This document shows positions 32,912 through 46,113 of a DNA stretch of 64,000 nucleotides, one piece after another. The translations under genes and the position numbers were made by a program. The stretch is from positions 25,858 through 89,857 of the forward strand of contig JAKJEM010000006.1 of the NCBI GenBank assembly GCA_022705425.1, given 5' to 3'. The stretch's first letter is position 1; each line of letters begins with the position of its first letter. The notes beneath the pieces were generated by a model. That model did not search any database. It worked only from the letters and a program-made list of their open reading frames with translations, and had not been told where the DNA came from. This DNA comes from Planctomycetota bacterium. GTDB taxonomy: Bacteria > Planctomycetota > Brocadiia > CAIUPP01.

Positions 32912-33955
32912 CTATCGGTAATCGAACAACGAGTTGTTGTCCGGTCCGAACCAACCCACGCCCAGTGCGGCGCGCTCGCCGGCAGTGATGTCCGGCTGTC
33001 CGGTCCAGTAATCGTAGGTATCGGTGGTCCAGTCCATGCGGCGCGAGGAGACGCTCTGATCGAGCCAGAGGACGTTGGCCGCGCCGTCATGGCGGAAGTG
33101 AATGGTGGGCGAGGCGAAGCCCCAGCTCGTTTCTTCCTTGCCCATGCCGTCGGGGCTGGCGCTGATGAAGCGCGGCGGCTGGACGTTGGACTGCTCGATG
33201 ACGTAGAGCTTTCCGTTGACCTTCTTGACCATTCCGGCGTCGCTGAAGAGAACGGTTTCGTGGGGGGACTTGAACTTGGCGGACTGGGCGGGGGTTTCGT
33301 ACGGCGCGGCGGTCAGGAAGACGTAATTCCAGCTTGCGTCGTAGCCCCAGGCGTCCCAACGGGATTCGCTTCCACCGCAGTAGGTGGTGTTGTATCCATA
33401 GCCTCCCGCGCCCGCCTCGAAGGCCTCGATGCCGGCGCCGGAGGTCTTTTCGTAGAGGCCGCGGAAGGTGGGGCACATTTTGACCGCCTGCATCTTGAGG
33501 ATGGTGTTGGCGTCCGGGGGCGCGTAGGCGTCAATTTCGGCCTGGGTGGAGGGGAAACGCAGGGGTTCGATCCCGAGGTAGGAGGCCAGGTAGCCGAAGC
33601 GCGGGTCGAAGGCGTCGTCGGTGGTCTTGCGCCAGCCGTGCCAGCGCCAGTAGCCGGCCGACCAGGCGCTTCCCGGCGGGGTGACGTGCATGTCGGCATT
33701 GCCGGGCATGTAGTACTGGCCGTAGTCGCTGAGATACATTTCCATGGCCGTGCCGAGTTGATGGAGGTTGTTCTTGCAGCTCGTTTGCCGTCCCTTCTCG
33801 CGAGCCGACGCCAGCGCGGGGAGAAGCATCCCCGCGAGCACGGCGATGATCGCGATGACGACGAGGAGTTCGATCAGCGTGAACCCCGCCGGTCCGAATG
33901 CCACCGCCCCGTCCCACAACGCCTTCAAGCGACGACCCAACCCACGCGCGCGCAT
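32912..33955 (-). CDS. DUF1559 protein with type IV pilin-like N-terminal cleavage/methylation domain
   Basis: [63 protein letters not shown] 5 nt upstream. First gene downstream of the B12 riboswitch. Confidence 0.85.
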
Positions 33956-34104: not shown

Positions 34105-34300
34105 CTTCACCGGCCCTGACCTCGAAGCCGTTCTGAAGCGCGCACAGGCAGGTCTTCTGGCTCTCGGATCATCCTACCGGCCGCGCCTTCCCGTTCCACA
34201 CGATGGAACAGTGGCCACGCGGCGTTCGTCCCCGATCACAGCGGCGGGACCGCGACGGATTCGCACCGTCTTCCCTTTTCAGCCCGTACGTCGGGCCACC
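34105..34300 (-). promoter_or_regulatory. Cobalamin (AdoCbl) riboswitch with SD-sequestering expression platform
   Basis: The minus strand reads GGTGGCCCGACG...AAAGGGAAGACGGTGCGAATCCGTC...CCGCTGTGA...AGCCAGAAGACCTGCCTG (B12 box). Downstream, CCCTCCTCTC (34030-34021) is complementary to the RBS GAGAGGAGG (33969-33961). Confidence 0.85.
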
Positions 34301-34314
34301 TGTGAACATAGTTT

Positions 34315-34344
34315 TATTATCGCACCGGACGCGGCAGGAGTCAA
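34315..34344 (-). promoter_or_regulatory. sigma70-like promoter TTGACT-N18-ATAATA driving the riboswitch/B12 operon
   Basis: Reverse complement: cacTTGACTcctgccgcgtccggtgcgATAATAaaac. The predicted TSS lies just 5' of the aptamer. Confidence 0.45.
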
Positions 34345-37578: not shown

Positions 37579-38273
37579 ACGTGCTGGCGATCGAGAGCAG
37601 CGGGGCAATCGGGTCGGTGGCGGCGTGCCGTGAGGAGACGGTGCTGGCGGAGGCGCGGCTTGAGCGCGGGGCGGAGCACGGGCGCGGGTTGGTGGCGTTG
37701 GTGGACGAGGTGACGCGCCGGGCGGGTTGGGAGCGCGGGATGGGAGCGGACCTGATTGCGGTGAGCCAGGGGCCGGGGTCGTTCACGGGGTTGCGGGTGG
37801 GCCTGGTGTGCGCCAAGACGATAGCGGCGCTGCTGGCGAAGCCGATTGTGGGGGTGTGCAGTCTGGACGCCATGGCCGAGAACGCGCCGTCAGAGGCGGT
37901 CTCGGTAGCCACGGCGCTGGACGCCAAGCGGGGACAGGTGTACTACGCGCAGTACGAGCGCGACGGAGGACGGCTGCGCCGGAGAAGCGGACCGCTCTTG
38001 GGCGCGCCGGAGGCCGTGACGGCGGGGCTGACGCCGCCGGTGCGCATCCTGGGCGATGCGCTGCGGCAGTATGCGAGCGTGTGGAGTGCCGGGGGGGCGG
38101 TAGCGCTTCCGGAGGAGTTGTGGCGCATCGGCGCTTCGACGGTGGCCCGGTTGGGGCTGGCGGCCTTTCGGGCGGGGCGGAGCGATGAGCCCTTCGGGCT
38201 GCAACCGTTGTACGTGCGGTTGCCCGAGGCGGAGGAGCGTCGCCTGGCCCGGGTGGAAGGGACAAGACCGTGA
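37575..38273 (+). CDS. tsaB: tRNA threonylcarbamoyladenosine biosynthesis protein TsaB (YeaZ)
   Basis: MNVLAIESSGAIGSVAA...GPGSFTGLRVG. Confidence 0.8.
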   Translation: MNVLAIESSGAIGSVAACREETVLAEARLERGAEHGRGLVALVDEVTRRAGWERGMGADLIAVSQGPGSFTGLRVGLVCAKTIAALLAKPIVGVCSLDAMAENAPSEAVSVATALDAKRGQVYYAQYERDGGRLRRRSGPLLGAPEAVTAGLTPPVRILGDALRQYASVWSAGGAVALPEELWRIGASTVARLGLAAFRAGRSDEPFGLQPLYVRLPEAEERRLARVEGTRP

Positions 38274-39088
38274 TGGAGATTCTGGCGGCGCTCCTGCGTC
38301 ACTTCCGTCCGAGGCTGTGGTTCTTCGCCGCTGCGCATTGCCTGACGGGGATCGTGGCGGCGCAGGGGGCGGGGATACTGCAGAGCGACCTGTGGACGTG
38401 GCTGCAGTACGCGGTGGCGTGCGGATTGTGGTCGGTGTCGCTGGTGGGGGGCGGGGCGGCGCTGTGCGACGCCTTTGCGATGTACGGACAGGACACGCGC
38501 GAGGCGGACGGCTACGTGACGACGCGCGAGCGGCTGGGCTGGATTGCGCTGGCGACGCTGCTGGGGGGAATGGCGCTGTCGCTGCTGATTTCGTGGTCGT
38601 ACTGGGACGCGTATCGTCTGGGGCTGCTGCTGCTGGCGGTGTATGCGGCGCCACCGGTGCGGCTGGCGCGGTGGGCGGGGGGCGATTTCGCTTTGCAGGG
38701 TCTCGGCCTGGGCGCGCTGACCTTCTACGCCGGCATCGCGGCGACGGAGACGGGCCTGCTCGACGGGTACCCCCTTCCGCTCTTCATCGCGGGGTTCTTC
38801 CTGCTCTTCGTGGCGGCGAAGGCCTTCCTGCGCGAGGGGGCGAAGAAGTCGGCCTGGCTCTACTGGACGACACTGGCGGGGGCGTTCGCGTGTTTGTCGG
38901 TGGGCGGGGTGATGGCGGGCGAGCGATGGGCGGCGGCGCTGCTGGTCTTCCCGCTGGGGGTGTGGACGGTGGCGGGGCTGGATCGGTTCGACGCGCGCGC
39001 GACGGGACGGTTCCGAGGGAAGACGTCGGTGTTCGGGGCGTGGCTGCTGACGGACGCGGCCGTGGCGCTGGCGGCGCTGCTGACGTAG
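38270..39088 (+). CDS. Polytopic membrane protein (possible UbiA-like prenyltransferase), hypothetical
   Basis: 7-8 predicted TM helices. Only weak Asp-rich motif (GQDTREADG), so the family call is tentative. Confidence 0.45.
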   Translation: MMEILAALLRHFRPRLWFFAAAHCLTGIVAAQGAGILQSDLWTWLQYAVACGLWSVSLVGGGAALCDAFAMYGQDTREADGYVTTRERLGWIALATLLGGMALSLLISWSYWDAYRLGLLLLAVYAAPPVRLARWAGGDFALQGLGLGALTFYAGIAATETGLLDGYPLPLFIAGFFLLFVAAKAFLREGAKKSAWLYWTTLAGAFACLSVGGVMAGERWAAALLVFPLGVWTVAGLDRFDARATGRFRGKTSVFGAWLLTDAAVALAALLT

Positions 39089-39094
39089 GCGGGG

Positions 39095-41266
39095 CTAGAG
39101 CAGGAAACGGCGGCTGATCATTCGGCGGAACTCGCGCCAGAGTTGAACGCCCAGGGGGTCGCTGCTGACGACGAAACGCGCGCGCCCGGTGGCGCCGACG
39201 GGCAGCGTCTCGACGTCGCGATCGAGGATCACGTCCACGCGATACCAAGGCATGAGGGTGCGGTCTCGCGCCTTGGGATCCAGGAGGACCGGTCCGCCGC
39301 CGGCGTCGGTGAGGGAGACGTCCGGCGGGGTGAAGGTGGCGGAGGGGTGGATGCGCTCGATTCGGCCTTCATAGACGCGCGCGGGATCGCTGCGGAACTT
39401 GATGCGGACGGGCCGGTCGGCGGCGGCACGAATAGCGGGAAGGTCGGTGGTTTCGACCACAACGCAGACGCGGAGTCGGTCGGCGGAGGCGACGCGGCAG
39501 AAGACGTCGCCGAGTTGGAGGTACTTGCCGCGCGTTTCGTCGAGGTCCGGGGCGTCGAGGCGGCCGTCGAAGGGGGCGCGGAAGGTGAGGGCGCGGGCGC
39601 GCGCCTGGAGGGTGTCGAGACCCTTGTGCAGGCCGGCGAGGCGCACACGCTCGGCGCGCGCGGCGCCCTGGTCCTGGGCTTCGAGCATCCGCAGGCGGGC
39701 GGCGGATCCCCGGATGCGGGCTTCAAGTTCGGCGATCTGGAAGTCCAACGTCTCATTGCGCAGTGTGCCGAGGACGCGGTCCTTGGACACGCGCTCGCCG
39801 TCGTGGACGGAAACCTCGGTGAGAAAGCCGGGCCACTCGGCGCGAAGGACAGCGAGGTCCGCCGGCTCCAGGACGCAGGGGCAGCGGACGCCTTCGGGCA
39901 GCGGCACGGCCACGAGCAGGGCAGCCAGGACGGCAACGCCGGCGGCCAGGACGCCGGCCGCGCGCCAGCGCACGGGGCGGGTGGCGGGGTCGAAGAGGCA
40001 GTACTTGACCATCTTGACGGCCGGCGTCACGAGCCAGAGGATGGCGATAATGACCGCAAGGAGGATTCCCAGGATGAAGAGCTGCGAGGCGATGAAGAGG
40101 ATGATTCCGACGGCAATGATCGTGCGATAGATGGTGGCGAGGATGCCGTAGCCGAGGTACCAGGCGCGCTCGCGCGGGGTGGCCGGGGTCATCGTCACCT
40201 GCGCGCCGATGAGGCGCTTCTTGAGCAGATCGGTGATGTACTTGGTCGAGCGCTGGCGGAGGTTGGGGATTTCGATCAGGTCGGCGAGGATATAGTAGGC
40301 GTCATAGCGAAGGAGCGGGTTTCCGTTGAAGAGGAGGGAGGAGACGCTGGCGACGAAGATGACGTTGTAGCAGACGCTCTTGAGGACGCCGGGTTCCAGG
40401 GAGAGCCAGGCGAAGAGGGCGAGGGCGGCGACAAAGAACTCGACCATCATTCCAGCCGCGCCGATGAGGATCTTCTGCCACTTGGACTGAAGCCCCCAGG
40501 CCGGGGTGACATCCACATAGGGCATGGGCATGAAGATGATGAGCATGATCCCCATGCGATGGACCTCGACGCCGTGACAACGCGCGGCATAGGCGTGGCC
40601 GAACTCGTGGAGGGACTTGACGATGACGAAAGCCAGATAGAGGTAGAGGAGGTTGTCGGGGGCGAGGATTCCGTTGGCGGGCTGGGCGAGGGCGCGGATG
40701 TTGTAGGCCAGGGCGACGGCGGCCGCGCCGACGACGGCCAGCCACAGGAAGAAGACCCAGCGGCTGAAGACCCAGCGGACCCAGGGCATCGTTTCGATGA
40801 GGAAACGGTCGGGGTCGAGCAGGGGAATTGTGGCATACATGAAGTTGGAGAGGCGCCCGAGGGTGCGCTGACGTCGCTTCTTGGCCGCGCGTTCGACGTG
40901 CCACTTGCTGTCGTCGGCGCCTTCGGGGGTGGTCAGGTTGGCCTGGCGGAGCATGAAGGCGAACTGGGCGAGGTCGCGGAAGGACGGAGCCCGGGAGCCG
41001 AGCTTCGCCTTGAGGGCGTCGTGGATTTCGCCGAGGGTGGTCCGCCCGTCGAGGCGGTCGAGGATTTCGCGCTCGTCGCGTCCGATGCGGTAGAACTGGA
41101 GGGTGATGGGGTCCTGCAGGACAAACCACTGCTCCCCGCGGAAGCTCTGCGGGGTGACGACGGCGTCGTGCCGGAGACGGGGCTTGAGGCGGCGGAGTTG
41201 GGGGCCGTATTCCTCGAATTCGAGGTCTCGGCTGAGGTCGTCCTCGGGCTTTTCGACTCGACTCAT
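39095..41266 (-). CDS. Fusion protein: N-terminal soluble domain, site-2-protease-like peptidase M50 membrane domain (HEFGH), and a C-terminal HlyD/membrane-fusion-protein periplasmic domain
   Basis: HExxH (SLHEFGHAYAARCHG) within multiple TM helices; C-terminal biotin-lipoyl-like, coiled-coil (ELEARIRGSAARLRMLEAQDQ) and beta-barrel segments. One-nucleotide gap to the upstream gene. Confidence 0.75.
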   Translation of the reverse strand: MSRVEKPEDDLSRDLEFEEYGPQLRRLKPRLRHDAVVTPQSFRGEQWFVLQDPITLQFYRIGRDEREILDRLDGRTTLGEIHDALKAKLGSRAPSFRDLAQFAFMLRQANLTTPEGADDSKWHVERAAKKRRQRTLGRLSNFMYATIPLLDPDRFLIETMPWVRWVFSRWVFFLWLAVVGAAAVALAYNIRALAQPANGILAPDNLLYLYLAFVIVKSLHEFGHAYAARCHGVEVHRMGIMLIIFMPMPYVDVTPAWGLQSKWQKILIGAAGMMVEFFVAALALFAWLSLEPGVLKSVCYNVIFVASVSSLLFNGNPLLRYDAYYILADLIEIPNLRQRSTKYITDLLKKRLIGAQVTMTPATPRERAWYLGYGILATIYRTIIAVGIILFIASQLFILGILLAVIIAILWLVTPAVKMVKYCLFDPATRPVRWRAAGVLAAGVAVLAALLVAVPLPEGVRCPCVLEPADLAVLRAEWPGFLTEVSVHDGERVSKDRVLGTLRNETLDFQIAELEARIRGSAARLRMLEAQDQGAARAERVRLAGLHKGLDTLQARARALTFRAPFDGRLDAPDLDETRGKYLQLGDVFCRVASADRLRVCVVVETTDLPAIRAAADRPVRIKFRSDPARVYEGRIERIHPSATFTPPDVSLTDAGGGPVLLDPKARDRTLMPWYRVDVILDRDVETLPVGATGRARFVVSSDPLGVQLWREFRRMISRRFLL

Positions 41267-41267
41267 G

Positions 41268-43172
41268 TCACCACCACAGGCGCAGACGCAGCCAGTTGAG
41301 GAGCTTGCGGGAGGCCACCCAGGTCACGTTGCGCCGCCCAGCCTTGAGACGGGCCACGCCTTCAATGCCGGGGCGAAGCGAGCCGTCGGGATTGGGGACA
41401 AGGGCCTCGGCGACATAGACGTTTTCGCCGTCGCGGGTTTCGGGCATGGGGTGCAGTTTGGAGAGCTTGAAGGGAACGACCTCATCGGGCTGGGCGCGGG
41501 TGGTGAACTCGCCCTGCATTCCGAGGCGGACGTGGGCGATGTCCTCCTGGGCGATGGAGATTTCGAGGATGAGTTTGTCGAGGGGGGCGACTTCGAGGAG
41601 TTCCTGCCCGGTGCGCACGGGGCGTCCGATATCGCGGGAGAGGTCGCCGCGCAGGAGCAGTCCGGGAAAATCGGCCTCGACGCGGGCCTTTTCGGCGTGG
41701 CGCTGGAGGAGGGCGATCTCGGCGGCAAGGGCGTCGGCGCGCGCCTGGGCTTCGGCATAGCGCGAGAGCTTCTGTTCGGCGAGATAGGAGGCCATTTCCT
41801 TCTCGACGCTGGCGCGCTTGGCGAGAGACTCGCGGAGCTGGAGGTCAATCTCGTCGCGGTCGAAGCTGAGGAGGAGGCTTCCCACGGCGACCTCGTCGCC
41901 GGGGCGAAGGGGCGCCTCTTTGATGGTCGTGTCATACGGGGCGGCGTAGATGCGGCGGAAGGAGGGCGTGAGGACGCAGTTGCCGGAGAGGTTGAAGTCC
42001 CACCGCCCGAAGACCGCAAAGGCGAGAAGGGCCAGAAGGGCGGCGATGGCGGCGCGCCGCCCGGGGTGCTCGCGCCCGAAGACCCAACGGACGGCGGCGC
42101 GCGTGGCGTCGCCGAGGCGGCGGGCAAGGGGACGTTCATTCAACTGGGCCAGGCGGAGGATGGGGCCGATCTGGCCGGCGGCGACGTCAATGACCTCGCG
42201 CGCGCCGGGGGGGAGTTCGTCGGCGGCGAATTCGAGGGTCCAGACACCGACAAGTTCGCGGTCCTTGCGGAGTGGAACGCTGTAGATGACGCGCGCGCCG
42301 GCCTTGGCGGCGAGTTCGTCGTGCTGGGGGCTGCGGCTGCGCTGGGCGGCGCGGGCCTCTCCGGCGAGCGCGACGGCATAGAGGATGGGTTCGCCGGCGA
42401 GGGCCGTCTCGGTCTGCGCGGCGCGCAGGAGGCGAACCATGTTGCTTCGCGCGTCGAGGGTGTCTTCACCGGAGACGGCGGCGACGGAGGTCTTTGCGCC
42501 GCGGACGAAGCCGAAGGTGACGCGTTCGGCGTTGAAGGCGGTCTTGGCGCGGTTGGCCGCGACGTGCGCCATATCGTGCGATCGGGTGAAGGCGGTCATC
42601 TCCCCCACCAGCGCCCAGGCGGCGGAGAGGGCGCGGTAGGCGGCGCGGCCCTCTTCGGACCCGCGACGGGTGGAATAGAGCCCCATCATGGCCGCAACCA
42701 GCCGAAGCATGGCCAGGCGTCCGTCGGTGAGGACGCCGGACTTGAGGCCGACGGCGAGCGTGGCGCACTGCGCGGGGGATTCCGGGGCGCACAGGGGAAT
42801 CGCCAGCGCAACGAGGTCGCCCCCGGCGGCGACGCGCTCGGGGGGTTCGGGGAGGGAACGGGTCTGGATGACGCCGGACTGAACGGCGGCGGTGGCGGCT
42901 TCGGAGAGGCGCTGAGCCCAGGCCTGGGCCGTGGCTTCAGTGACGCGGGGGGCGATCTGCATCACGGGTCGCAGGGCGCCGCCGTCCTCGCGCCGCCACA
43001 GGGCGCCGTGCCAGGCTTCGGAAAGGCCGACCAGTCCGCGCAGGACTTCGGCCATGACGCCCTCTGCGGCGCCATCGGCAAGGCACATCTTCTCGAGGCG
43101 CTCGATCAGCGCCACGAGGGGCCAGGTTTGTCCCGGCGCGCCGGGCTGCGTCCGTTGTTCGCCGCTCATCAT
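41268..43172 (-). CDS. GAF-GAF-TM-HlyD: membrane fusion (HlyD-family) protein with a roughly 380-aa cytoplasmic tandem GAF-like sensor domain
   Basis: GAF-like ends (VALAIPLCAPESPAQCATLAVGLKSGVLTD...; VIYSVPLRKDRELVGVWTLEFAADELPPGAREVIDVAAGQIGPIL); TM AAIAALLALLAFAVF; HlyD periplasmic portion with coiled-coil and beta-barrel. Confidence 0.7.
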   Translation of the reverse strand: MMSGEQRTQPGAPGQTWPLVALIERLEKMCLADGAAEGVMAEVLRGLVGLSEAWHGALWRREDGGALRPVMQIAPRVTEATAQAWAQRLSEAATAAVQSGVIQTRSLPEPPERVAAGGDLVALAIPLCAPESPAQCATLAVGLKSGVLTDGRLAMLRLVAAMMGLYSTRRGSEEGRAAYRALSAAWALVGEMTAFTRSHDMAHVAANRAKTAFNAERVTFGFVRGAKTSVAAVSGEDTLDARSNMVRLLRAAQTETALAGEPILYAVALAGEARAAQRSRSPQHDELAAKAGARVIYSVPLRKDRELVGVWTLEFAADELPPGAREVIDVAAGQIGPILRLAQLNERPLARRLGDATRAAVRWVFGREHPGRRAAIAALLALLAFAVFGRWDFNLSGNCVLTPSFRRIYAAPYDTTIKEAPLRPGDEVAVGSLLLSFDRDEIDLQLRESLAKRASVEKEMASYLAEQKLSRYAEAQARADALAAEIALLQRHAEKARVEADFPGLLLRGDLSRDIGRPVRTGQELLEVAPLDKLILEISIAQEDIAHVRLGMQGEFTTRAQPDEVVPFKLSKLHPMPETRDGENVYVAEALVPNPDGSLRPGIEGVARLKAGRRNVTWVASRKLLNWLRLRLWW

Positions 43173-43281
43173 TCAAGCTTCCCGACGTCCGCTGCGCCCT
43201 CATCGCGCGCGGCGTCATCCTCTGAAAACGGCCCTGGATTCCCCTCGGGCGGCGTCGCCGTTCGACGCGGGCCCGTCCCCC

Positions 43282-43623
43282 TCACCCGAAGCGCGGGCGC
43301 GGCTGGTCCGGCGGGCGCGGCGGAGGCGCGCCGGGGATGACGTTGATTGTGCCGTGGACGGATTCGTATTGCTGGAGCACGCCGCCGAGGGCCAGGGCCA
43401 GTCGCTTCGCCGCCGGATAGGTCATGATGACGCGGCTTGAGACGTCCACTTCCGTGGGTGTGCCCGGCTGGGGCGGGTTGAGGTTGAGCGCGAAGTTGAG
43501 GATGATCTCCTCGGGGGTGCTGGTGATGACGGCGAAGTTGGCGTAGTTCGTCACCGTCTTTTCCCAGTGCATTCGCAGCATACCGCTGTGGTCGGGCTTC
43601 TCATCCGGCTTCTTGTCGGCCAT
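43282..43623 (-). CDS. DUF3467-family small protein
   Basis: YANFAVITSTPEEIILNF...SSRVIMTYPAAKRLALALGGVLQQYESVHGTI matches the DUF3467 pattern. GGGAG RBS; 113 aa. Confidence 0.6.
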   Translation of the reverse strand: MADKKPDEKPDHSGMLRMHWEKTVTNYANFAVITSTPEEIILNFALNLNPPQPGTPTEVDVSSRVIMTYPAAKRLALALGGVLQQYESVHGTINVIPGAPPPRPPDQPRPRFG

Positions 43624-43639
43624 GCGTGTTCTCCCAGAG

Positions 43640-44494
43640 TTACCGGCTGAGCGGAACGGAGAGCGCGCCCTTGGCGCCGGCGGCGATACGTCCGCCGGGA
43701 TTGGGCAGAGTGAACTTGACGCGGTACATGCCGCTGGCGGGGTCCACGACGTTGTCCACGACGGCGACGTTGCAGGAGAGGGTCTGGCCGGGCATGTTTT
43801 CGAGGGTCAGGCGCCCTTGGGTTCCGGGCGCGATGCGACCGGAGGTGGCAATGGGCAGGTTGGCGATGACGTAGAGGGGGTCCACGCAGCAGATGCTGGC
43901 GACGGGGGTGCGCTCCTGGACGGCCTCCCCTTCGCGTTTGTAGATGCGGACGACGGTGGCGTCGTGGGGGGCGCGGACCTGGGTGCGTCGGATGGCTTCG
44001 TCGTCGCGCTGGACGGCGACTTCGATCATCTTGAGCTGGGCTTTGGCGTTATCCACGCCCAGGCGCGCGAGTTCCATCTCCAAGCGGGCCTTGTCGTGGT
44101 CCTCGTGCGACATGATCTTCTTCTCGAAGAGGGCGGCGACGCGGTCGAGGTCCATCTTGCGCTGGGTGAAGGTGGCCTCGGAGGCCGTCACCTGTACGCG
44201 GGCGGACTCGAGGCGAGAGAGGGTGACGGCGCGCTCGGCCTTGAGCAGGTCGGAGCGCAGTTCGACGAGGAGTTGCCCTTCCTTGACGGCATCGCCCTCT
44301 TCGCAGTGGACCTTCTGAACGACGCCGCCGGCGTCGGTGGCCAGTTCCACCATGCGGAAGGGGACGGTGAAGGCCGTGGCTTCCGCGACCTCCGGCCCCT
44401 TGGGCGCGGGGGCCTGGCCCGGTGCGGAGGATGCCGCCCAGAGCAGCCAAGCGCAAAGACCCGCCGCACAGGCGGGCTGTAGCGAGATTCGCAA
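43640..44494 (-). CDS. Secreted periplasmic adaptor / membrane fusion protein (RND/HlyD_D23-like)
   Basis: TTG start with GGAGGAGGAG RBS; signal peptide MRISLQPACAAGLCAWLLWAASSAPGQA; biotin-lipoyl (GVVQKVHCEEGDAVKEGQLLVELRS), helical hairpin, beta-barrel (VRAPHDATVVRIYKREGEAV). Confidence 0.7.
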   Translation of the reverse strand: MRISLQPACAAGLCAWLLWAASSAPGQAPAPKGPEVAEATAFTVPFRMVELATDAGGVVQKVHCEEGDAVKEGQLLVELRSDLLKAERAVTLSRLESARVQVTASEATFTQRKMDLDRVAALFEKKIMSHEDHDKARLEMELARLGVDNAKAQLKMIEVAVQRDDEAIRRTQVRAPHDATVVRIYKREGEAVQERTPVASICCVDPLYVIANLPIATSGRIAPGTQGRLTLENMPGQTLSCNVAVVDNVVDPASGMYRVKFTLPNPGGRIAAGAKGALSVPLSR

Positions 44495-44533
44495 GGGGTT
44501 CTCCTCCTCCTGAGACACGACCGTCCTTGAAGG

Positions 44534-44563
44534 AGGATATCGCGGGCGGGGCTTCCGTGTCAA
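44534..44563 (-). promoter_or_regulatory. Candidate promoter TTGACA-N17-GATATC for the adaptor/M50 cluster
   Basis: Reverse complement: ccgaTTGACAcggaagccccgcccgcgATATCCtcc. Placement supports the TTG 44494 start. Confidence 0.3.
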
Positions 44564-44688
44564 TCGGCGGACGGGGGCGAGGGCTTCGATCCAAGGGTCG
44601 CTCACGGGTCGGGCAAGGCGCGACTTGCCTCTGTCCGCGTCAAGTGCTACGCTCGCCCGTCGGCTGACGGTACGGCATCTCGCGGGGA

Positions 44689-46113
44689 ATGCGTTTGCGG
44701 AGGCATCCAGTGGAATGGTTGTTCGACGATGCGGCGCTGGACCGTTCTGCGGGCGTGCGGCGCACGCTGGCGATGCCCCGAAAGGAACCCGTTCCGGTAC
44801 TGCGCCCGGAGCGCCCGTGGGAGCAGGCCGGGCTGGTGGGAACCCTTTCACCCTTCTACGACCGCACGCGCCGGCTCTTCCGGCTGTGGTACCGCGCGCG
44901 GATGCCGGGCGCGCCGCGACGCACCTTTCTCTGCTATGCCGAAAGCCCGGATGCCGTCCATTGGACGCGCCCGGCGCTGGGGTTGTCGGATTTCACCGGG
45001 TTCGCCGGGAACAACATTGTGCGTGAGATCGGCGAAGCGGATTCGGTCTTCTGGAACATCGTGTTCGACGCGGACGATCCGGATCCGGCGCGGCGCTACA
45101 AGGCGCTGGGGTTCGACCATACTCCCGAGGGCAACGGGATCTGCGTAGCCTACTCCCCGGACGGGTTCCGCTGGCCGACGCCGCCCCGGCAGGCGCTGCC
45201 GACGAGCCAGGTGACCGACGCCGACTGCCTCTTCCCGCGGCGCGACCCACTGTCCGGGAAGTGGGTGGGGTTCTTTCGCCCCCGGACGGCGCCCAAGCGC
45301 CGCTTCCTTGGCTTGTCCGAGAGCGATGATTTCGACCATTGGACGCGCCCGCGCATGCTCTTGACGCCGGACGCGCAGGACGAGGAGTGGACGGAGTTCT
45401 ACGGTCTGGCGGCGGCGTGTCTGGGTGAGTGGCGCGTGGGGGCGATGTGGGTCTATCGCAACCACCCGGACTACTCGCCGATGACCACGGAGTTGGTGTA
45501 TTCGCGCGAGGGACGCGCGTACCACCGCGCCTTCCCTCGCCGGAAGTTCGTCCCCCTCGGGCCCGCCGGGGCGTTCGACTGCCGGATGATCATGCCGGTC
45601 GCGCTCGTGGAGCACGGCCCGGAGTTCCTGATCTTCTACAGCGGCTGGAACCGCGAGCACGGCTCGGACCGCGGGATGCCCATGCAGAACAAGGAGGCCG
45701 CCCTGTGCGAACCCCTGAAGACGGGGATCGGCCTGGCGCGGGTGAACAAACACCATCTCTGCGGCCTGCAGGCGGAGGGGAGCGGCGTCATTGAGAGCCG
45801 CTGGCTCTGCAACTACGGCGAGAGCGGCGTGCTCCTTGCGGCAGACATCGCTCCGAGTGGAACAATCCTCGTGGAGTTGCTCGATCAGTACGGGAAGGTC
45901 CTTCCGGGATGGTCCGGCAGAGAGAGCCGTCTGGCGCCGTGTGGCGACGGAAGGTTCCGTTGCCTGTGGAGCGGGGACCGGTCCGCCCAACCGGGGCGCG
46001 CGAGTCCCGAAGGCGGGACGATTGGACATGTGCTGAAACTTCGGCTGTGCATCCACAAAGCGACGCTCTGCGGTTTCCAGGCGGGCGATGCGCCGGGCGC
46101 CGGACCGGCTTAG
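44689..46113 (+). CDS. Glycoside-hydrolase-like beta-propeller protein; paralog of 23644-25137
   Basis: N-terminus VEWLFDDAAL...ERPWEQ aligns with VDWTLIDAG...DRPWED of the paralog; further shared motifs throughout. Confidence 0.55.
   Translation: MRLRRHPVEWLFDDAALDRSAGVRRTLAMPRKEPVPVLRPERPWEQAGLVGTLSPFYDRTRRLFRLWYRARMPGAPRRTFLCYAESPDAVHWTRPALGLSDFTGFAGNNIVREIGEADSVFWNIVFDADDPDPARRYKALGFDHTPEGNGICVAYSPDGFRWPTPPRQALPTSQVTDADCLFPRRDPLSGKWVGFFRPRTAPKRRFLGLSESDDFDHWTRPRMLLTPDAQDEEWTEFYGLAAACLGEWRVGAMWVYRNHPDYSPMTTELVYSREGRAYHRAFPRRKFVPLGPAGAFDCRMIMPVALVEHGPEFLIFYSGWNREHGSDRGMPMQNKEAALCEPLKTGIGLARVNKHHLCGLQAEGSGVIESRWLCNYGESGVLLAADIAPSGTILVELLDQYGKVLPGWSGRESRLAPCGDGRFRCLWSGDRSAQPGRASPEGGTIGHVLKLRLCIHKATLCGFQAGDAPGAGPA

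What the first reader, a model, noticed from the sequence alone, without database searches (positions are those of the whole stretch)
39095..44563. Orphan four-gene adaptor cluster: secreted MFP, DUF3467, GAF-GAF-HlyD and site-2-protease(M50)-HlyD fusion, with no pump or channel partner
Four co-directional, tightly spaced genes (16-nt, about 110-nt and 1-nt gaps) sit behind one candidate promoter. Three of them carry periplasmic membrane-fusion-protein (HlyD/biotin-lipoyl/beta-barrel) domains. No ABC, RND or MFS inner-membrane transporter and no TolC-like channel is encoded here; the flanks are trpE/tsaB and a glycosidase paralog. One adaptor is fused in cis to an intramembrane zinc metalloprotease (HEFGH, peptidase M50/S2P). 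Another carries a roughly 380-aa cytoplasmic tandem-GAF sensor ahead of its TM anchor. A small DUF3467 protein of unknown function sits between them. This architecture suggests a ligand-gated, envelope-spanning proteolysis or peptide-processing and export apparatus rather than a conventional efflux system. DUF3467 may be its substrate or cargo, or a regulatory subunit. I am not aware of a characterised system with this composition.
Basis: partly seen in the sequence, partly recalled or inferred. Interest (0 to 1): 0.85.

Follow-up and report, generated by a model that had tools for sequence, protein, structure and literature searches.

The report
Membrane core of giant-protein secretion module
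These four genes are the inner-membrane and periplasmic core of a very widespread but experimentally untested secretion-like machine, first noticed by comparative genomics in 2015, that normally pairs with a shortened SecA motor, a TolC channel and giant 'LEPR-XLL' proteins; in this window the motor, channel and cargo genes are not nearby.

Summary
Four co-directional minus-strand genes encode a secreted MFP, a DUF3467 protein, a GAF-GAF-TM-MFP protein and an RRE-like/M50-protease/TM-MFP fusion. All are intact, and the catalytic motifs are present. The cluster is not unique. The M50-MFP protein belongs to a family with 4,355 cluster representatives and occurs in at least 597 species. GAF-MFP lies directly upstream in 68/69 loci. 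A truncated SecA paralogue (NBD1-PPXD-NBD2 only) lies downstream in 66/73. No ABC transporter recurs. Kamneva, Poudel and Ward (PLoS One 2015) already described this locus (secondary SecA_DEAD plus three HlyD proteins, plus or minus OEP) and proposed that SecA replaces the ABC ATPase. No experiments exist. New here: the neighbouring genes are very often giant proteins (1,500 to over 13,000 aa, many RTX) carrying the N-terminal LEPR-XLL motif. The M50 domain has the RRE+M50 architecture of RiPP leader peptidases. DUF3467 pairs with the cargo genes. Best reading: a TolC-dependent, SecA-paralogue-driven exporter of LEPR-XLL giant proteins with a built-in leader peptidase. The window's copy lacks the motor, channel and cargo in cis. 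Novelty: a new member of a described but uncharacterised kind.

The parts
44534..44563 (-). Sigma-70-like promoter candidate TTGACA-18 nt-TATCCT upstream of g1
   Evidence: 10/12 matches; the only site in 8 kb, against 0.2 expected in shuffles. A consensus match only; function not shown.
43640..44494 (-). g1: secreted periplasmic membrane-fusion protein (284 aa from the TTG at 44494; the ORF is open up to 44851)
   Evidence: RND_mfp 138 bits (above the 94.9 cutoff), HlyD_D23 75 bits; GGAGGAGGAG Shine-Dalgarno before the TTG; hydrophobic signal-like N-terminus. An orthologous ~283-aa MFP is found in at least 55 loci.
44108..44143 (-). R-x3-L-x6-S ('RLS') hairpin-tip motif RVAALFEKKIMS in g1, the motif that contacts TolC-type channels in canonical adaptors
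   Evidence: The motif is present in 38/58 g1-type orthologues against 11.9 expected from shuffles. It is absent from the hairpins of g3 and g4. The role of the RLS motif is from my knowledge of the MFP literature, not tested here.
43282..43623 (-). g2: DUF3467 protein (113 aa), cytoplasmic, with no signal peptide
   Evidence: Pfam 65 bits. The conserved core is SYAN...EE...FG...R.I..P.AAKRL...YE..G. AF2 gives pLDDT 50, so no fold can be assigned. No PDB relative by sequence.
41268..43172 (-). g3: tandem-GAF (cytoplasmic) - TM - membrane-fusion protein (634 aa)
   Evidence: Lies directly upstream of the M50-MFP gene in 68/69 loci.
42006..42062 (-). Single TM anchor of g3 (residues 371-389, GRRAAIAALLALLAFAVFG)
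   Evidence: hydropathy.
39095..41266 (-). g4: RRE/PqqD-like domain - M50 intramembrane metalloprotease - TM - membrane-fusion protein (723 aa)
   Evidence: Residues 29-414 match NCBIfam daptide_HExxH over its full length (173.5 bits, below the 300 cutoff). PqqD Pfam hits in 13/16 homologues. The family has 4,355 representatives at E<=1e-30.
40595..40609 (-). HEFGH zinc-binding and catalytic motif of the M50 domain
   Evidence: H220/E221/H224 invariant.
40301..40327 (-). NGNPLLRYD: second S2P motif (N-x-x-P-x-x-x-x-D) carrying the third zinc ligand
   Evidence: N314, N316, P317, D322 invariant. The zinc-ligand role is established knowledge of the M50 family.

Best explanation
The four genes are the inner-membrane and periplasmic core of the 'secondary-SecA / type-I-secretion-related' module of Kamneva et al. 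(2015). I infer that this module is a TolC-dependent, one-step secretion machine for very large proteins that begin with the LEPR-XLL leader.

Proposed working, with every step inferred unless marked as shown:
1. A cytoplasmic truncated SecA paralogue grips the unfolded cargo and supplies ATP-driven pushing. Shown: it keeps NBD1, the preprotein-binding domain and NBD2. Shown: it lacks the wing domain, the two-helix finger and the C-terminal tail.
2. The N-terminal winged-helix (RRE/PqqD-like) domain of g4 recognises the cargo's basic-stretch-plus-LEPRxLLSA leader. The M50 active site, which lies in the membrane, clips that leader. This parallels how RRE+M50 proteases mature RiPPs and how C39 domains of ABC exporters clip bacteriocin leaders.
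3. The multi-TM M50 body, together with the TM anchors of g3 and g4, provides the inner-membrane passage.
4. The three adaptor domains build the periplasmic duct. The soluble g1, which carries the RLS tip motif, is the one that docks TolC.
5. The tandem GAF domains of g3 gate the machine in response to a small cytoplasmic ligand.
6. DUF3467 is a cargo-linked chaperone or adaptor, not the cargo.

In this window only the core is present. The SecA paralogue, the outer-membrane channel and the cargo must be encoded elsewhere in the genome, or this copy is incomplete.
For: Membership in the module:
- Order and lengths are conserved with the Planctomycetota relatives L001, L007, L008, L087-L090.
- GAF-MFP lies upstream in 68/69 loci and SecA-like downstream in 66/73, 64 of them on the same strand.
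- Unbiased ORF clustering finds only M50-MFP (84 loci), GAF-MFP (78), SecA-like (68), MFP (55+) and DUF3467 (30) as recurrent coding-strand families.
- The published description matches.

Secretion function:
- TolC/OEP genes occur in 16 loci, plus annotated TolC in Methylosinus and Thalassospira.
- SapC occurs in 7 loci.
- An ABC signature appears in only 2/87 loci, and far from the module.
- The g4 C-terminus matches the MacA/MexA/AcrA fold.
- The RLS motif is enriched in g1-type MFPs.
- The SecA paralogue aligns only to B. subtilis SecA residues 20-605 and fails every NCBIfam SecA/SecA2 cutoff.

Cargo:
- RTX-rich ORFs of 1,056 to over 2,900 aa (most cut off by the locus edge) lie directly upstream in 18 loci.
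- Every adjacent giant ORF whose N-terminus is visible carries LEPRxLLSA.
- NF012209 hits above cutoff include the L088 protein next to the four-gene cluster of the window's own clade.
- In 6/6 annotated replicons of cultured bacteria, a 4,033-12,918-aa gene sits directly upstream, and 5/6 carry the motif.
- 29/87 loci have a demonstrable RTX or LEPR neighbour.

Leader-peptidase logic:
- g4 residues 29-414 match the RRE+M50 daptide protease model end to end, and also YydH/LiaK.
- PqqD is found in 13/16 homologues.
- The AF2 model shows a three-stranded sheet plus helices at residues 36-108.

Independent biology (bioRxiv 10.64898/2026.03.19.712371): LEPRxLL giants of Chlorobium chlorochromatii are flanked by sapC and tolC and are exported to a partner cell. 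They 'lack known signals', and an acquired secA clusters with them in expression.

DUF3467 pairs with giant genes, often with overlapping stop and start codons.
Against: - There are no experiments on any member. The whole functional reading is guilt by association.
- The window has no SecA paralogue, TolC, RTX or LEPR gene. I could not inspect the rest of its genome.
- About 10% of loci, including L089 in the same clade and Thalassospira, also lack SecA in cis. The motor may therefore be dispensable or shared.
- The inner-membrane channel is not identified; an M50 protease acting as a protein conduit has no precedent.
- The hairpins of g3 and g4 lack the RLS motif.
- The window's own g4 does not reach Pfam PqqD, and its GAF score is below cutoff.
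- One cultured giant (Alisedimentitalea) shows no LEPR motif at its annotated start.
- RTX giants could instead use C-terminal signals and an ABC T1SS encoded elsewhere, as the 2026 preprint assumes.
- In M. extorquens AM1 most of the operon was barely expressed in exponential phase.
- AF2 pTM is only 0.51 for g4, and the DUF3467 model is unusable.
Confidence: 0.6

Rival explanations
1. A RiPP or small-peptide maturation and export system. The RRE+M50 protease would remove the leader from a short ribosomal peptide and the adaptors would export it, as in the daptide or YydF/epipeptide systems.
For: The best specific NCBIfam hits of g4 are daptide_HExxH (173.5 bits, full model length) and YydH/LiaK. 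JGI/KEGG name the family 'putative peptide zinc metalloprotease'. PqqD-type RRE is found in 13/16 homologues.
Against: Both hits are far below the curated cutoffs (300 and 225). Unbiased clustering of 84 neighbourhoods found no recurrent precursor peptide, radical-SAM or other tailoring enzyme, and no ABC exporter. The recurrent neighbours are instead giant LEPR/RTX proteins, a polypeptide motor (SecA paralogue) and TolC.
Confidence: 0.1
2. A regulated-intramembrane-proteolysis signalling device. A ligand sensed by the GAF domains would trigger the S2P-type protease to cleave a membrane regulator such as an anti-sigma factor, with the adaptor domains sensing envelope state.
For: M50/S2P proteases classically act in signalling. 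g3 carries sensory GAF domains. In L089 a 743-aa sigma-70-domain protein follows the cluster.
Against: No sigma or anti-sigma family recurs in 84 loci. There is no PDZ domain. This reading does not explain three MFPs, a SecA paralogue with a preprotein-binding domain, TolC or giant neighbours.
Confidence: 0.08
3. Spare or auxiliary adaptors that serve a conventional ABC, RND or MFS pump encoded elsewhere (small-molecule efflux), with the M50 fusion incidental.
For: g1 passes the RND_mfp cutoff and all three proteins have MFP folds. Pumps and adaptors can be unlinked.
Against: In 85/87 loci no ABC signature lies within 10 kb, and no RND or MFS family recurs. The invariant partner is a SecA paralogue. 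The protease motifs are invariant, which argues for a selected catalytic role.
Confidence: 0.08
4. DUF3467 itself is the cargo or processed substrate.
For: It is small, encoded inside the operon, and its N-terminal ~25 residues are variable and charged.
Against: It is present in only 31 of about 84 loci. It has no LEPR-like leader and its core is strongly conserved (21 invariant positions in 59 sequences). It sits next to giant genes, sometimes once per giant gene, with overlapping stop and start codons, the pattern typical of dedicated chaperones.
Confidence: 0.05
5. In this particular genome the cluster is an inactive remnant left behind after loss or relocation of the motor and cargo genes.
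For: The window lacks the SecA paralogue, TolC and any LEPR/RTX gene. Its clade normally has the SecA paralogue convergently downstream (L001, L008, L088, L090).
Against: All four ORFs are full length compared with orthologues (284/113/634/723 aa against 277/113/638/723 aa in L087). The catalytic and RLS motifs are intact. The 2015 paper reports that unlinked partners are found elsewhere in such genomes.
Confidence: 0.09

Closest known systems
Conserved 'secondary SecA_DEAD + three HlyD-domain proteins (+/- OEP)' locus of Kamneva, Poudel and Ward, PLoS One 2015 (PMC4452313)
   Same: It has the same three adaptor proteins (one with Peptidase_M50, one with GAF, one plain) and the same phyla, including Planctomycetes. 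It makes the same proposal that a SecA paralogue replaces the ABC ATPase and that the M50 protein supplies the membrane part. It states that partners can be encoded elsewhere in the genome.
   Different: In the window the SecA paralogue is not in cis. DUF3467, SapC, the RRE/PqqD-like domain, the similarity to RiPP proteases and any cargo are not mentioned in that paper. The paper is purely computational.
Type I secretion systems (HlyB-HlyD-TolC; LapB-LapC-LapE for giant RTX adhesins)
   Same: Both have membrane-fusion adaptors with a TolC-docking fold, TolC-family genes in a fifth of loci, giant RTX proteins encoded next door, and SapC as in the Campylobacter fetus S-layer T1SS locus.
   Different: No ABC transporter is present. 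The ATPase is a SecA paralogue. There are three adaptors, two of them fused to cytoplasmic or membrane modules. The candidate signal is N-terminal (LEPR-XLL) rather than C-terminal. An intramembrane metalloprotease is built in.
RRE-containing M50 leader peptidases of RiPP pathways (daptide protease family NF041824; YydH/LiaK NF058609)
   Same: The N-terminal recognition domain plus M50 core is matched over the whole model length. The HExxH and NxxPxxxxD motifs are present.
   Different: Scores are well below family cutoffs. The protein is fused to a TM helix and an MFP. No RiPP precursor or tailoring genes are present. The neighbours are giant proteins.
Peptidase-containing ABC transporters (PCATs, C39 domain) of bacteriocin/NHLP export (from my own knowledge)
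   Same: The logic is the same: a leader-cleaving protease physically built into the exporter that works with an MFP.
   Different: The protease class differs (cysteine C39 against zinc M50), as do the motor (ABC against SecA paralogue) and the cargo size (peptides against proteins of thousands of residues).
Accessory SecA2 systems of Gram-positive bacteria and mycobacteria
   Same: Both involve a second SecA dedicated to special cargo. SecA2 structures are among the best PDB matches of the paralogue.
   Different: The paralogue here ends after the start of the scaffold helix, so it has no wing domain, two-helix finger or C-terminal tail. It fails all SecA2 model cutoffs. There is no SecY2/Asp partner. 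It is partnered with MFPs and TolC in diderm bacteria.
SecA_DEAD/PPXD modules lacking scaffold and wing domains inside giant Omnitrophota/Actinobacteria proteins (bioRxiv 10.1101/2023.11.21.568195)
   Same: Both show a truncated SecA motor associated with the export of giant proteins.
   Different: There the SecA module is part of the giant protein itself, and no M50/MFP module is described.

Membership tests
Secondary-SecA / T1SS-related module (Kamneva et al. 2015) | Peptidase_M50 + HlyD protein | tested here: met
   g4: PF02163 42 bits, HlyD_3 and HlyD_D23 above cutoffs. 50-80% identical to Planctomycetota module members.
Secondary-SecA / T1SS-related module (Kamneva et al. 2015) | GAF + HlyD protein adjacent to the M50 protein | tested here: met
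   g3 ends 1 nt before g4. The same adjacency holds in 68/69 loci. GAF is found in 40/41 orthologues.
Secondary-SecA / T1SS-related module (Kamneva et al. 2015) | Third, plain HlyD/biotin-lipoyl adaptor | tested here: met
   g1: RND_mfp 138 bits. An orthologous MFP is found in at least 55 loci.
Secondary-SecA / T1SS-related module (Kamneva et al. 2015) | Secondary SecA_DEAD protein in the same locus | tested here: not met
   tblastn and HMM searches find no SecA-like sequence in the 64-kb window. The paper accepts unlinked partners. The rest of the genome could not be searched.
Periplasmic adaptor / membrane-fusion protein (HlyD, RND_mfp) | Lipoyl + alpha-hairpin + beta-barrel fold; profile match above cutoff | tested here: met
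   All three proteins pass Pfam HlyD cutoffs. The g4 model matches MacA/MexA/AcrA at E about 1e-12.
Periplasmic adaptor / membrane-fusion protein (HlyD, RND_mfp) | RLS (R-x3-L-x6-S) TolC-contact motif at the hairpin tip | tested here: inconclusive
   Present in g1 (RVAALFEKKIMS) and enriched in its family (38/58 against 11.9 expected). Absent from the hairpins of g3 and g4.
Peptidase M50 / site-2 protease | HExxH in a TM helix plus NxxPxxxxD(G) with the third zinc ligand | tested here: met
   HEFGH and NGNPLLRYD are present and invariant in 16 homologues. Catalysis itself was not tested.
Daptide biosynthesis intramembrane metalloprotease (NF041824) | Score at or above the curated cutoff (300 bits) and a daptide gene cluster | tested here: not met
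   173.5 bits. No RiPP genes recur nearby.
YydH/LiaK epipeptide maturation protease (NF058609) | Score at or above 225 bits; radical-SAM epimerase and ABC exporter neighbours | tested here: not met
   39 bits. No such neighbours.
Type I secretion system | HlyB-type ABC transporter | tested here: not met
   No ABC signature in the window, and only in 2/87 related loci, distant and small.
Type I secretion system | TolC-family outer-membrane factor | tested here: not met
   No OEP hit in the window. Present in 16 related loci and in the Methylosinus and Thalassospira operons.
Type I secretion system | RTX-type cargo encoded nearby | tested here: not met
   None in the window. Present in 18 related loci.
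SecA / SecA2 translocase (for the partner found in related loci) | Full SecA architecture including wing domain and two-helix finger; score above the NCBIfam cutoff | tested here: not met
   The partner aligns to SecA residues 20-605 only. It scores 728 against a cutoff of 814 for SecA, and is below all SecA2 cutoffs.
DUF3467 (PF11950) | Profile match above the gathering score | tested here: met
   65.1 bits against 25.
GAF domain | Profile match above the gathering score in this protein | tested here: inconclusive
   The window copy scores 17.9-19.3 bits against 22.4. 40/41 orthologues match, and the profile hits solved GAF domains in two regions.
PqqD-like RiPP recognition element (PF05402) | Profile match; three-stranded sheet plus helical bundle | tested here: inconclusive
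   No Pfam hit in the window's own g4. 13/16 homologues hit (best 4.8e-6). The AF2 topology at residues 36-108 is compatible. Peptide binding is not testable here.
Known anti-phage defence systems (PADLOC) | Any model match | tested here: not met
   No hits for any of the four proteins.

The most novel reading that the evidence does not exclude
The module is a distinct, still unnamed type of diderm protein secretion system dedicated to LEPR-XLL giant proteins (up to tens of thousands of residues). An N-terminal leader would be read by an RRE domain and removed by a membrane-embedded M50 protease. A truncated SecA would thread the chain N-to-C through a non-SecY inner-membrane passage into a three-adaptor/TolC duct. 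GAF domains would gate the process and DUF3467 would act as cargo chaperone. This would explain how LEPR-XLL giants such as those of Chlorochromatium, reported to 'lack known signals', leave the cell.
Probability: 0.4. Interest if true: 0.85.

Novelty: new member of a known kind. Interest (0 to 1): 0.6.

Why it matters
How bacteria export proteins of 5,000-36,000 residues is an open question. The LEPR-XLL N-terminal signature has been curated (NF012209) but has no assigned pathway. If this module is their exporter, it would be a secretion route that combines parts of three known systems: a Sec motor, a type I adaptor/TolC duct and a RiPP-style leader peptidase. It occurs in hundreds of species, including tractable ones such as Methylorubrum extorquens AM1, Mesorhizobium ciceri, Thalassospira marina and Neptuniibacter caesariensis. 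That makes the question directly testable by deletion, secretome analysis and N-terminomics. It also corrects widespread mis-annotation: the SecA paralogue is labelled 'prepilin peptidase' or 'DEAD/DEAH helicase', and the M50-MFP protein is labelled 'PqqD chaperone', 'biotin/lipoyl-binding protein' or 'efflux adaptor'. For this window specifically, it shows the 'orphan' cluster is a split copy of a known module, not a unique invention.

Tried and rejected
1. DUF3467 as a SecB-like chaperone. hhalign of the DUF3467 profile against E. coli SecB (sequence from memory) gave probability 0.2%. No PDB relative by sequence or profile. AF2 with 59 sequences gave pLDDT 50, too poor for a fold search.
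2. A single-sequence word-indexed search for DUF3467 found only 2 relatives. It had to be repeated with an alignment.
3. A hidden classical pump. ABC signature scans and unbiased ORF clustering found none.
4. A regulatory RNA or terminator in the 109-nt g2-g3 gap. The fold z-score is -0.58, and there is no Rfam hit and no terminator-like site.
5. A defence system. No PADLOC hits.
6. Locating the SecA paralogue elsewhere in the window's genome.
7. Testing whether Thalassospira's plasmid carries an unlinked SecA paralogue. The record was not among the 60 rows listed, so this is unresolved.
8. A shared C-terminal signal in the RTX giants. There is no common motif apart from a 'DW' dipeptide near the end in 7/17, against 1.08 expected. 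This is too weak to build on.
9. Eight literature searches on component combinations found nothing before the tenth found the 2015 paper.

Full report
**1. What is in the window**

Four minus-strand ORFs occupy 39095-44494:
- g1: ORF 43640-44851. The most plausible start is the TTG at 44494, directly after GGAGGAGGAG. That gives 284 aa beginning MRISLQPACAAGLCAWLLWAASSAPGQAP.
- g2: 43282-43623 (113 aa).
- g3: 41268-43172 (634 aa).
- g4: 39095-41266 (723 aa).

The gaps are 16, 109 and 1 nt. The only sigma-70-like site in 8 kb is TTGACA-18-TATCCT at 44563-44534, against 0.2 expected. No terminator-like site or stable structure lies in the 109-nt gap. Long antisense ORFs over g3 and g4 are the usual artefact of roughly 70% G+C.

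- g1 is an MFP that passes NCBI's RND_mfp cutoff.
- g2 is DUF3467.
- g3 has HlyD_3 and HlyD_D23 after a single TM helix (residues 371-389).
- g4 has Peptidase_M50 followed by HlyD_3 and HlyD_D23.

HEFGH (40595-40609) and NGNPLLRYD (40301-40327) are present and invariant in a 16-sequence alignment spanning 35-80% identity.

The GAF call is weak in this copy (about 19 bits against 22.4). It is solid for the family. 40 of 41 orthologues hit GAF, and the family profile matches solved GAF domains in two separate stretches.

An AF2 model of g4 (pLDDT 79, pTM 0.51) shows four parts in order: a small sheet-plus-helices domain (residues 36-108), a helical membrane core, a last TM helix (about 427-452), and a lipoyl/alpha-hairpin/beta-barrel adaptor. 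Foldseek places the adaptor among MacA, MexA and AcrA at E about 1e-12.

The flanks are TrpE and TsaB on one side. On the other side are a 474-aa protein with no family hit, a GT4 glycosyltransferase and GatB. The rest of the window is ordinary chromosome (DnaK, LptF/G, glycoside hydrolases). A DUF1559/N-methyl protein typical of Planctomycetota is also present.

**2. The cluster is the core of a large conserved module**

The g4 architecture (about 715-730 aa) is very common.
- An exhaustive HMMER scan finds 4,355 representatives (50% clusters) at E<=1e-30, almost all matching from residue ~20 to ~720.
- Carriers include Planctomycetota, Verrucomicrobiota, Alpha-, Beta-, Gamma- and Deltaproteobacteria, Nitrospirota, Omnitrophota and others, with cultured strains among them.

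I analysed 84 loci with tblastn, iterative HMMs and an unbiased all-against-all ORF clustering.
- GAF-MFP lies immediately upstream of M50-MFP in 68/69 loci.
- A SecA-like gene lies downstream in 66/73 loci: 64 on the same strand, 57 with a gap under 400 nt.
- A separate ~283-aa MFP is present in 39/47 loci.
- DUF3467 is present in 31 loci.
- No other family recurs on the coding strand except TolC-like OEP (16 loci), SapC (7 loci) and giant ORFs.
- An ABC-ATPase signature occurs in only 2 of 87 loci, far from the module.

In the window's own clade (50-80% identity) the order MFP-DUF3467-GAF-MFP-M50-MFP is exact. The SecA-like gene lies convergently just downstream in L001, L008, L088 and L090. 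It is absent in L089, and the L087 contig ends too early to tell.

The window contains no SecA-like, OEP, ABC, RTX or LEPR sequence.

**3. The partner ATPase**

The SecA-like proteins (about 540-660 aa) align to B. subtilis SecA residues 20-605. That covers NBD1, the preprotein cross-linking domain, NBD2 and the first turns of the scaffold helix. They keep the Walker A (GEGKT) and DEVD motifs. They score below every NCBIfam SecA and SecA2 cutoff.

They therefore lack the wing domain, the two-helix finger that enters SecY, and the C-terminal tail (domain boundaries from established SecA structures). A motor of this shape can hold and push a polypeptide but is unlikely to work on SecYEG in the canonical way. 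That last point is inference.

**4. Prior art**

Eight literature searches on combinations of the components found nothing. The tenth found Kamneva, Poudel and Ward, PLoS One 2015 (PMC4452313).

[quoted passage not shown] These sit in a conserved locus with three HlyD-domain proteins (one with weak Peptidase_M50 similarity, one with GAF) and sometimes OEP.

They proposed that the SecA paralogue supplies the ATPase activity of the missing ABC transporter. They also proposed that the M50 protein may form the membrane pore. [quoted passage not shown] The work is computational only. It does not mention a substrate, RTX, PqqD or DUF3467.

Public annotation reflects this. The same protein is called 'PqqD family peptide modification chaperone', 'peptidase M50', 'site-2 protease', 'biotin/lipoyl-binding protein', 'efflux adaptor' or 'hypothetical'. 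The SecA paralogue is called 'DEAD/DEAH box helicase', 'prepilin peptidase' or 'SecA'.

**5. What this analysis adds: the probable cargo and the leader-peptidase logic**

(a) Giant neighbours. In 18 loci an RTX-rich ORF of 1,056 to over 2,900 aa, usually cut off by the locus edge, lies directly upstream on the same strand.

In complete, annotated replicons of cultured bacteria the operon begins with a giant gene:

| Organism | Giant gene product |
|---|---|
| Pontibrevibacter | 10,603 aa |
| Methylosinus sp. C49 | 8,847 aa |
| Pseudosulfitobacter | 12,918 aa |
| Thalassospira marina | 4,033 aa |
| Alisedimentitalea | 8,148 aa |
| Mesorhizobium ciceri | 10,518 aa |

That is 6 of 6 replicons. 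A metagenomic locus has a 13,379-aa gene in the same position.

(b) LEPR-XLL leaders. Wherever the N-terminus of such a neighbour is visible, it carries a basic stretch followed by the LEPRxLLSA motif within the first 20-100 residues.

NCBIfam NF012209 ('LEPR-8K', the LEPR-XLL domain) hits above its cutoff in five proteins. One is the 1,699-aa VWA protein directly upstream of the four-gene cluster in L088, in the window's clade. L090 and, in degenerate form, L001 have it too. L020 and L075 show that the RTX giants and the LEPR proteins are the same proteins. In all, 29 of 87 loci have a demonstrable RTX or LEPR neighbour. In 25 loci the big ORF runs off the edge, so its N-terminus is unseen.

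(c) Leader-peptidase architecture. g4 residues 29-414 match the NCBIfam model of the daptide RiPP intramembrane protease over its entire length (173.5 bits, below the 300 cutoff). They also match YydH/LiaK. 13 of 16 homologues hit Pfam PqqD. The module's protease therefore has the recognition-element-plus-M50 architecture of enzymes that bind and remove N-terminal leaders.

(d) DUF3467 and cargo genes. DUF3467 tends to sit next to the giant genes, sometimes with overlapping stop and start codons and sometimes in two copies. Its core is strongly conserved while its ends vary.

(e) The RLS motif. The R-x3-L-x6-S hairpin-tip motif is present in g1 and enriched in its family (38/58 against 11.9 expected). 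It is not enriched in the M50-MFP family (15/84 against 20.1 expected).

(f) Independent experimental context. A 2026 preprint reports that the LEPRxLL-bearing giants of Chlorobium chlorochromatii, flanked by sapC and tolC, are exported to the partner bacterium. [quoted passage not shown] Chlorobi is one of the phyla in which the 2015 paper found the secondary SecA. Neither paper connects LEPR-XLL cargo with the M50/GAF/SecA module.

**6. Most likely mechanism**

Shown here: the domain content, topology, synteny statistics, truncation of the SecA paralogue, absence of ABC transporters, and adjacency of TolC and LEPR/RTX giants.

Inferred:
- The SecA paralogue threads the unfolded giant protein.
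- The RRE-like domain of g4 docks the LEPR leader, and the M50 site removes it.
- The M50 body and TM anchors form or gate the inner-membrane passage.
- g3, g4 and g1 build the periplasmic duct, with g1 contacting TolC.
- The GAF domains gate activity.
- DUF3467 chaperones or targets the cargo.

My estimates:
- About 0.95 that the window's genes belong to this module.
- About 0.6 that the module exports LEPR-XLL proteins.
- About 0.35 for the specific leader-recognition and cleavage step.

For the window itself, the system is split or incomplete. Motor, channel and cargo are not within 64 kb, and I could not search the rest of the genome.

**7. Rivals**

- RiPP export: the best protease hits favour it, but there are no precursor or tailoring genes.
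- S2P signalling: GAF and M50 fit, but there is no conserved regulator and it leaves SecA, TolC and the MFPs unexplained.
- Auxiliary efflux adaptors: no pump is found, and the protease motifs are invariant.
- DUF3467 as cargo: it is patchily present and cargo-linked.
- Local remnant: the genes are intact.

Details and refutation tests are in the structured fields.

**8. Verdict**

The thing is a new, split member of a module described in 2015 and never characterised. It is sustained by the newly visible link to LEPR-XLL giant proteins, which turns an old annotation puzzle into a testable secretion hypothesis.

Noticed in passing
window 34130-34318 (-), with the gene at 32912-33955 (-): A strong cobalamin riboswitch (RF00174, 125.9 bits) sits upstream of a gene for a DUF1559 / prepilin-type N-methylation-motif protein, a Planctomycetota-expanded family. 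This is an unusual gene to find behind a B12 riboswitch.
   Followed up: no
L091 14094-16079; L092 14177-16093; L095 18083-20107; L099 17141-19102: RefSeq/PGAP labels the truncated SecA paralogue of the module 'DEAD/DEAH box helicase' or 'prepilin peptidase', and gives the M50-MFP protein at least six different names. This is systematic mis-annotation of the module.
   Followed up: partly
L104 1-8298 and 10001-10327; L103 10001-10324; L086 5423-5788 and 6790-7185: DUF3467 genes pair with giant genes. A 13,379-aa gene overlaps the start of one DUF3467 copy, while a second copy heads the GAF-M50-SecA operon. Some loci have two copies. This suggests one DUF3467 per cargo.
   Followed up: partly
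C-termini of giant ORFs in L011, L022, L023, L027, L064, L067, L068: A 'D-W' dipeptide within the last 45 residues occurs in 7 of 17 RTX giants against 1.08 expected. Proteobacterial DUF3467 proteins have a conserved 'I-K-W-D-D-S' just before their core. A possible shared recognition element, or coincidence.
   Followed up: partly
window 40799-40825 (-), g4 residues 148-156: A nearly invariant P-L-L-D-P-D-R-F-L segment lies between the RRE-like domain and the first TM helix of the M50-MFP family. Its function is unknown.
   Followed up: no
   Followed up: partly
window 38270-39088 (+): A 272-aa multi-TM protein with no family match is convergent with g4 and overlaps the tsaB stop by 4 nt, so it belongs to the trpE-tsaB transcription unit and not to the cluster.
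   Followed up: no
L096 (Thalassospira marina plasmid NZ_CP024200.1) 513-19478: A cultured organism has the operon LEPR-XLL protein - DUF3467 - GAF-MFP - M50-MFP - MFP - TolC with no SecA paralogue in cis. This is the best available analogue of the window's SecA-less arrangement and a good test case for whether the motor is unlinked or dispensable.
   Followed up: partly
L011, L012, L022, L062, L076, L079, L082, L095: SapC-family genes (PF07277), otherwise known from the Campylobacter fetus S-layer type I secretion locus, are inserted in the module in several Proteobacteria, usually between the M50-MFP and SecA-like genes.
   Followed up: partly
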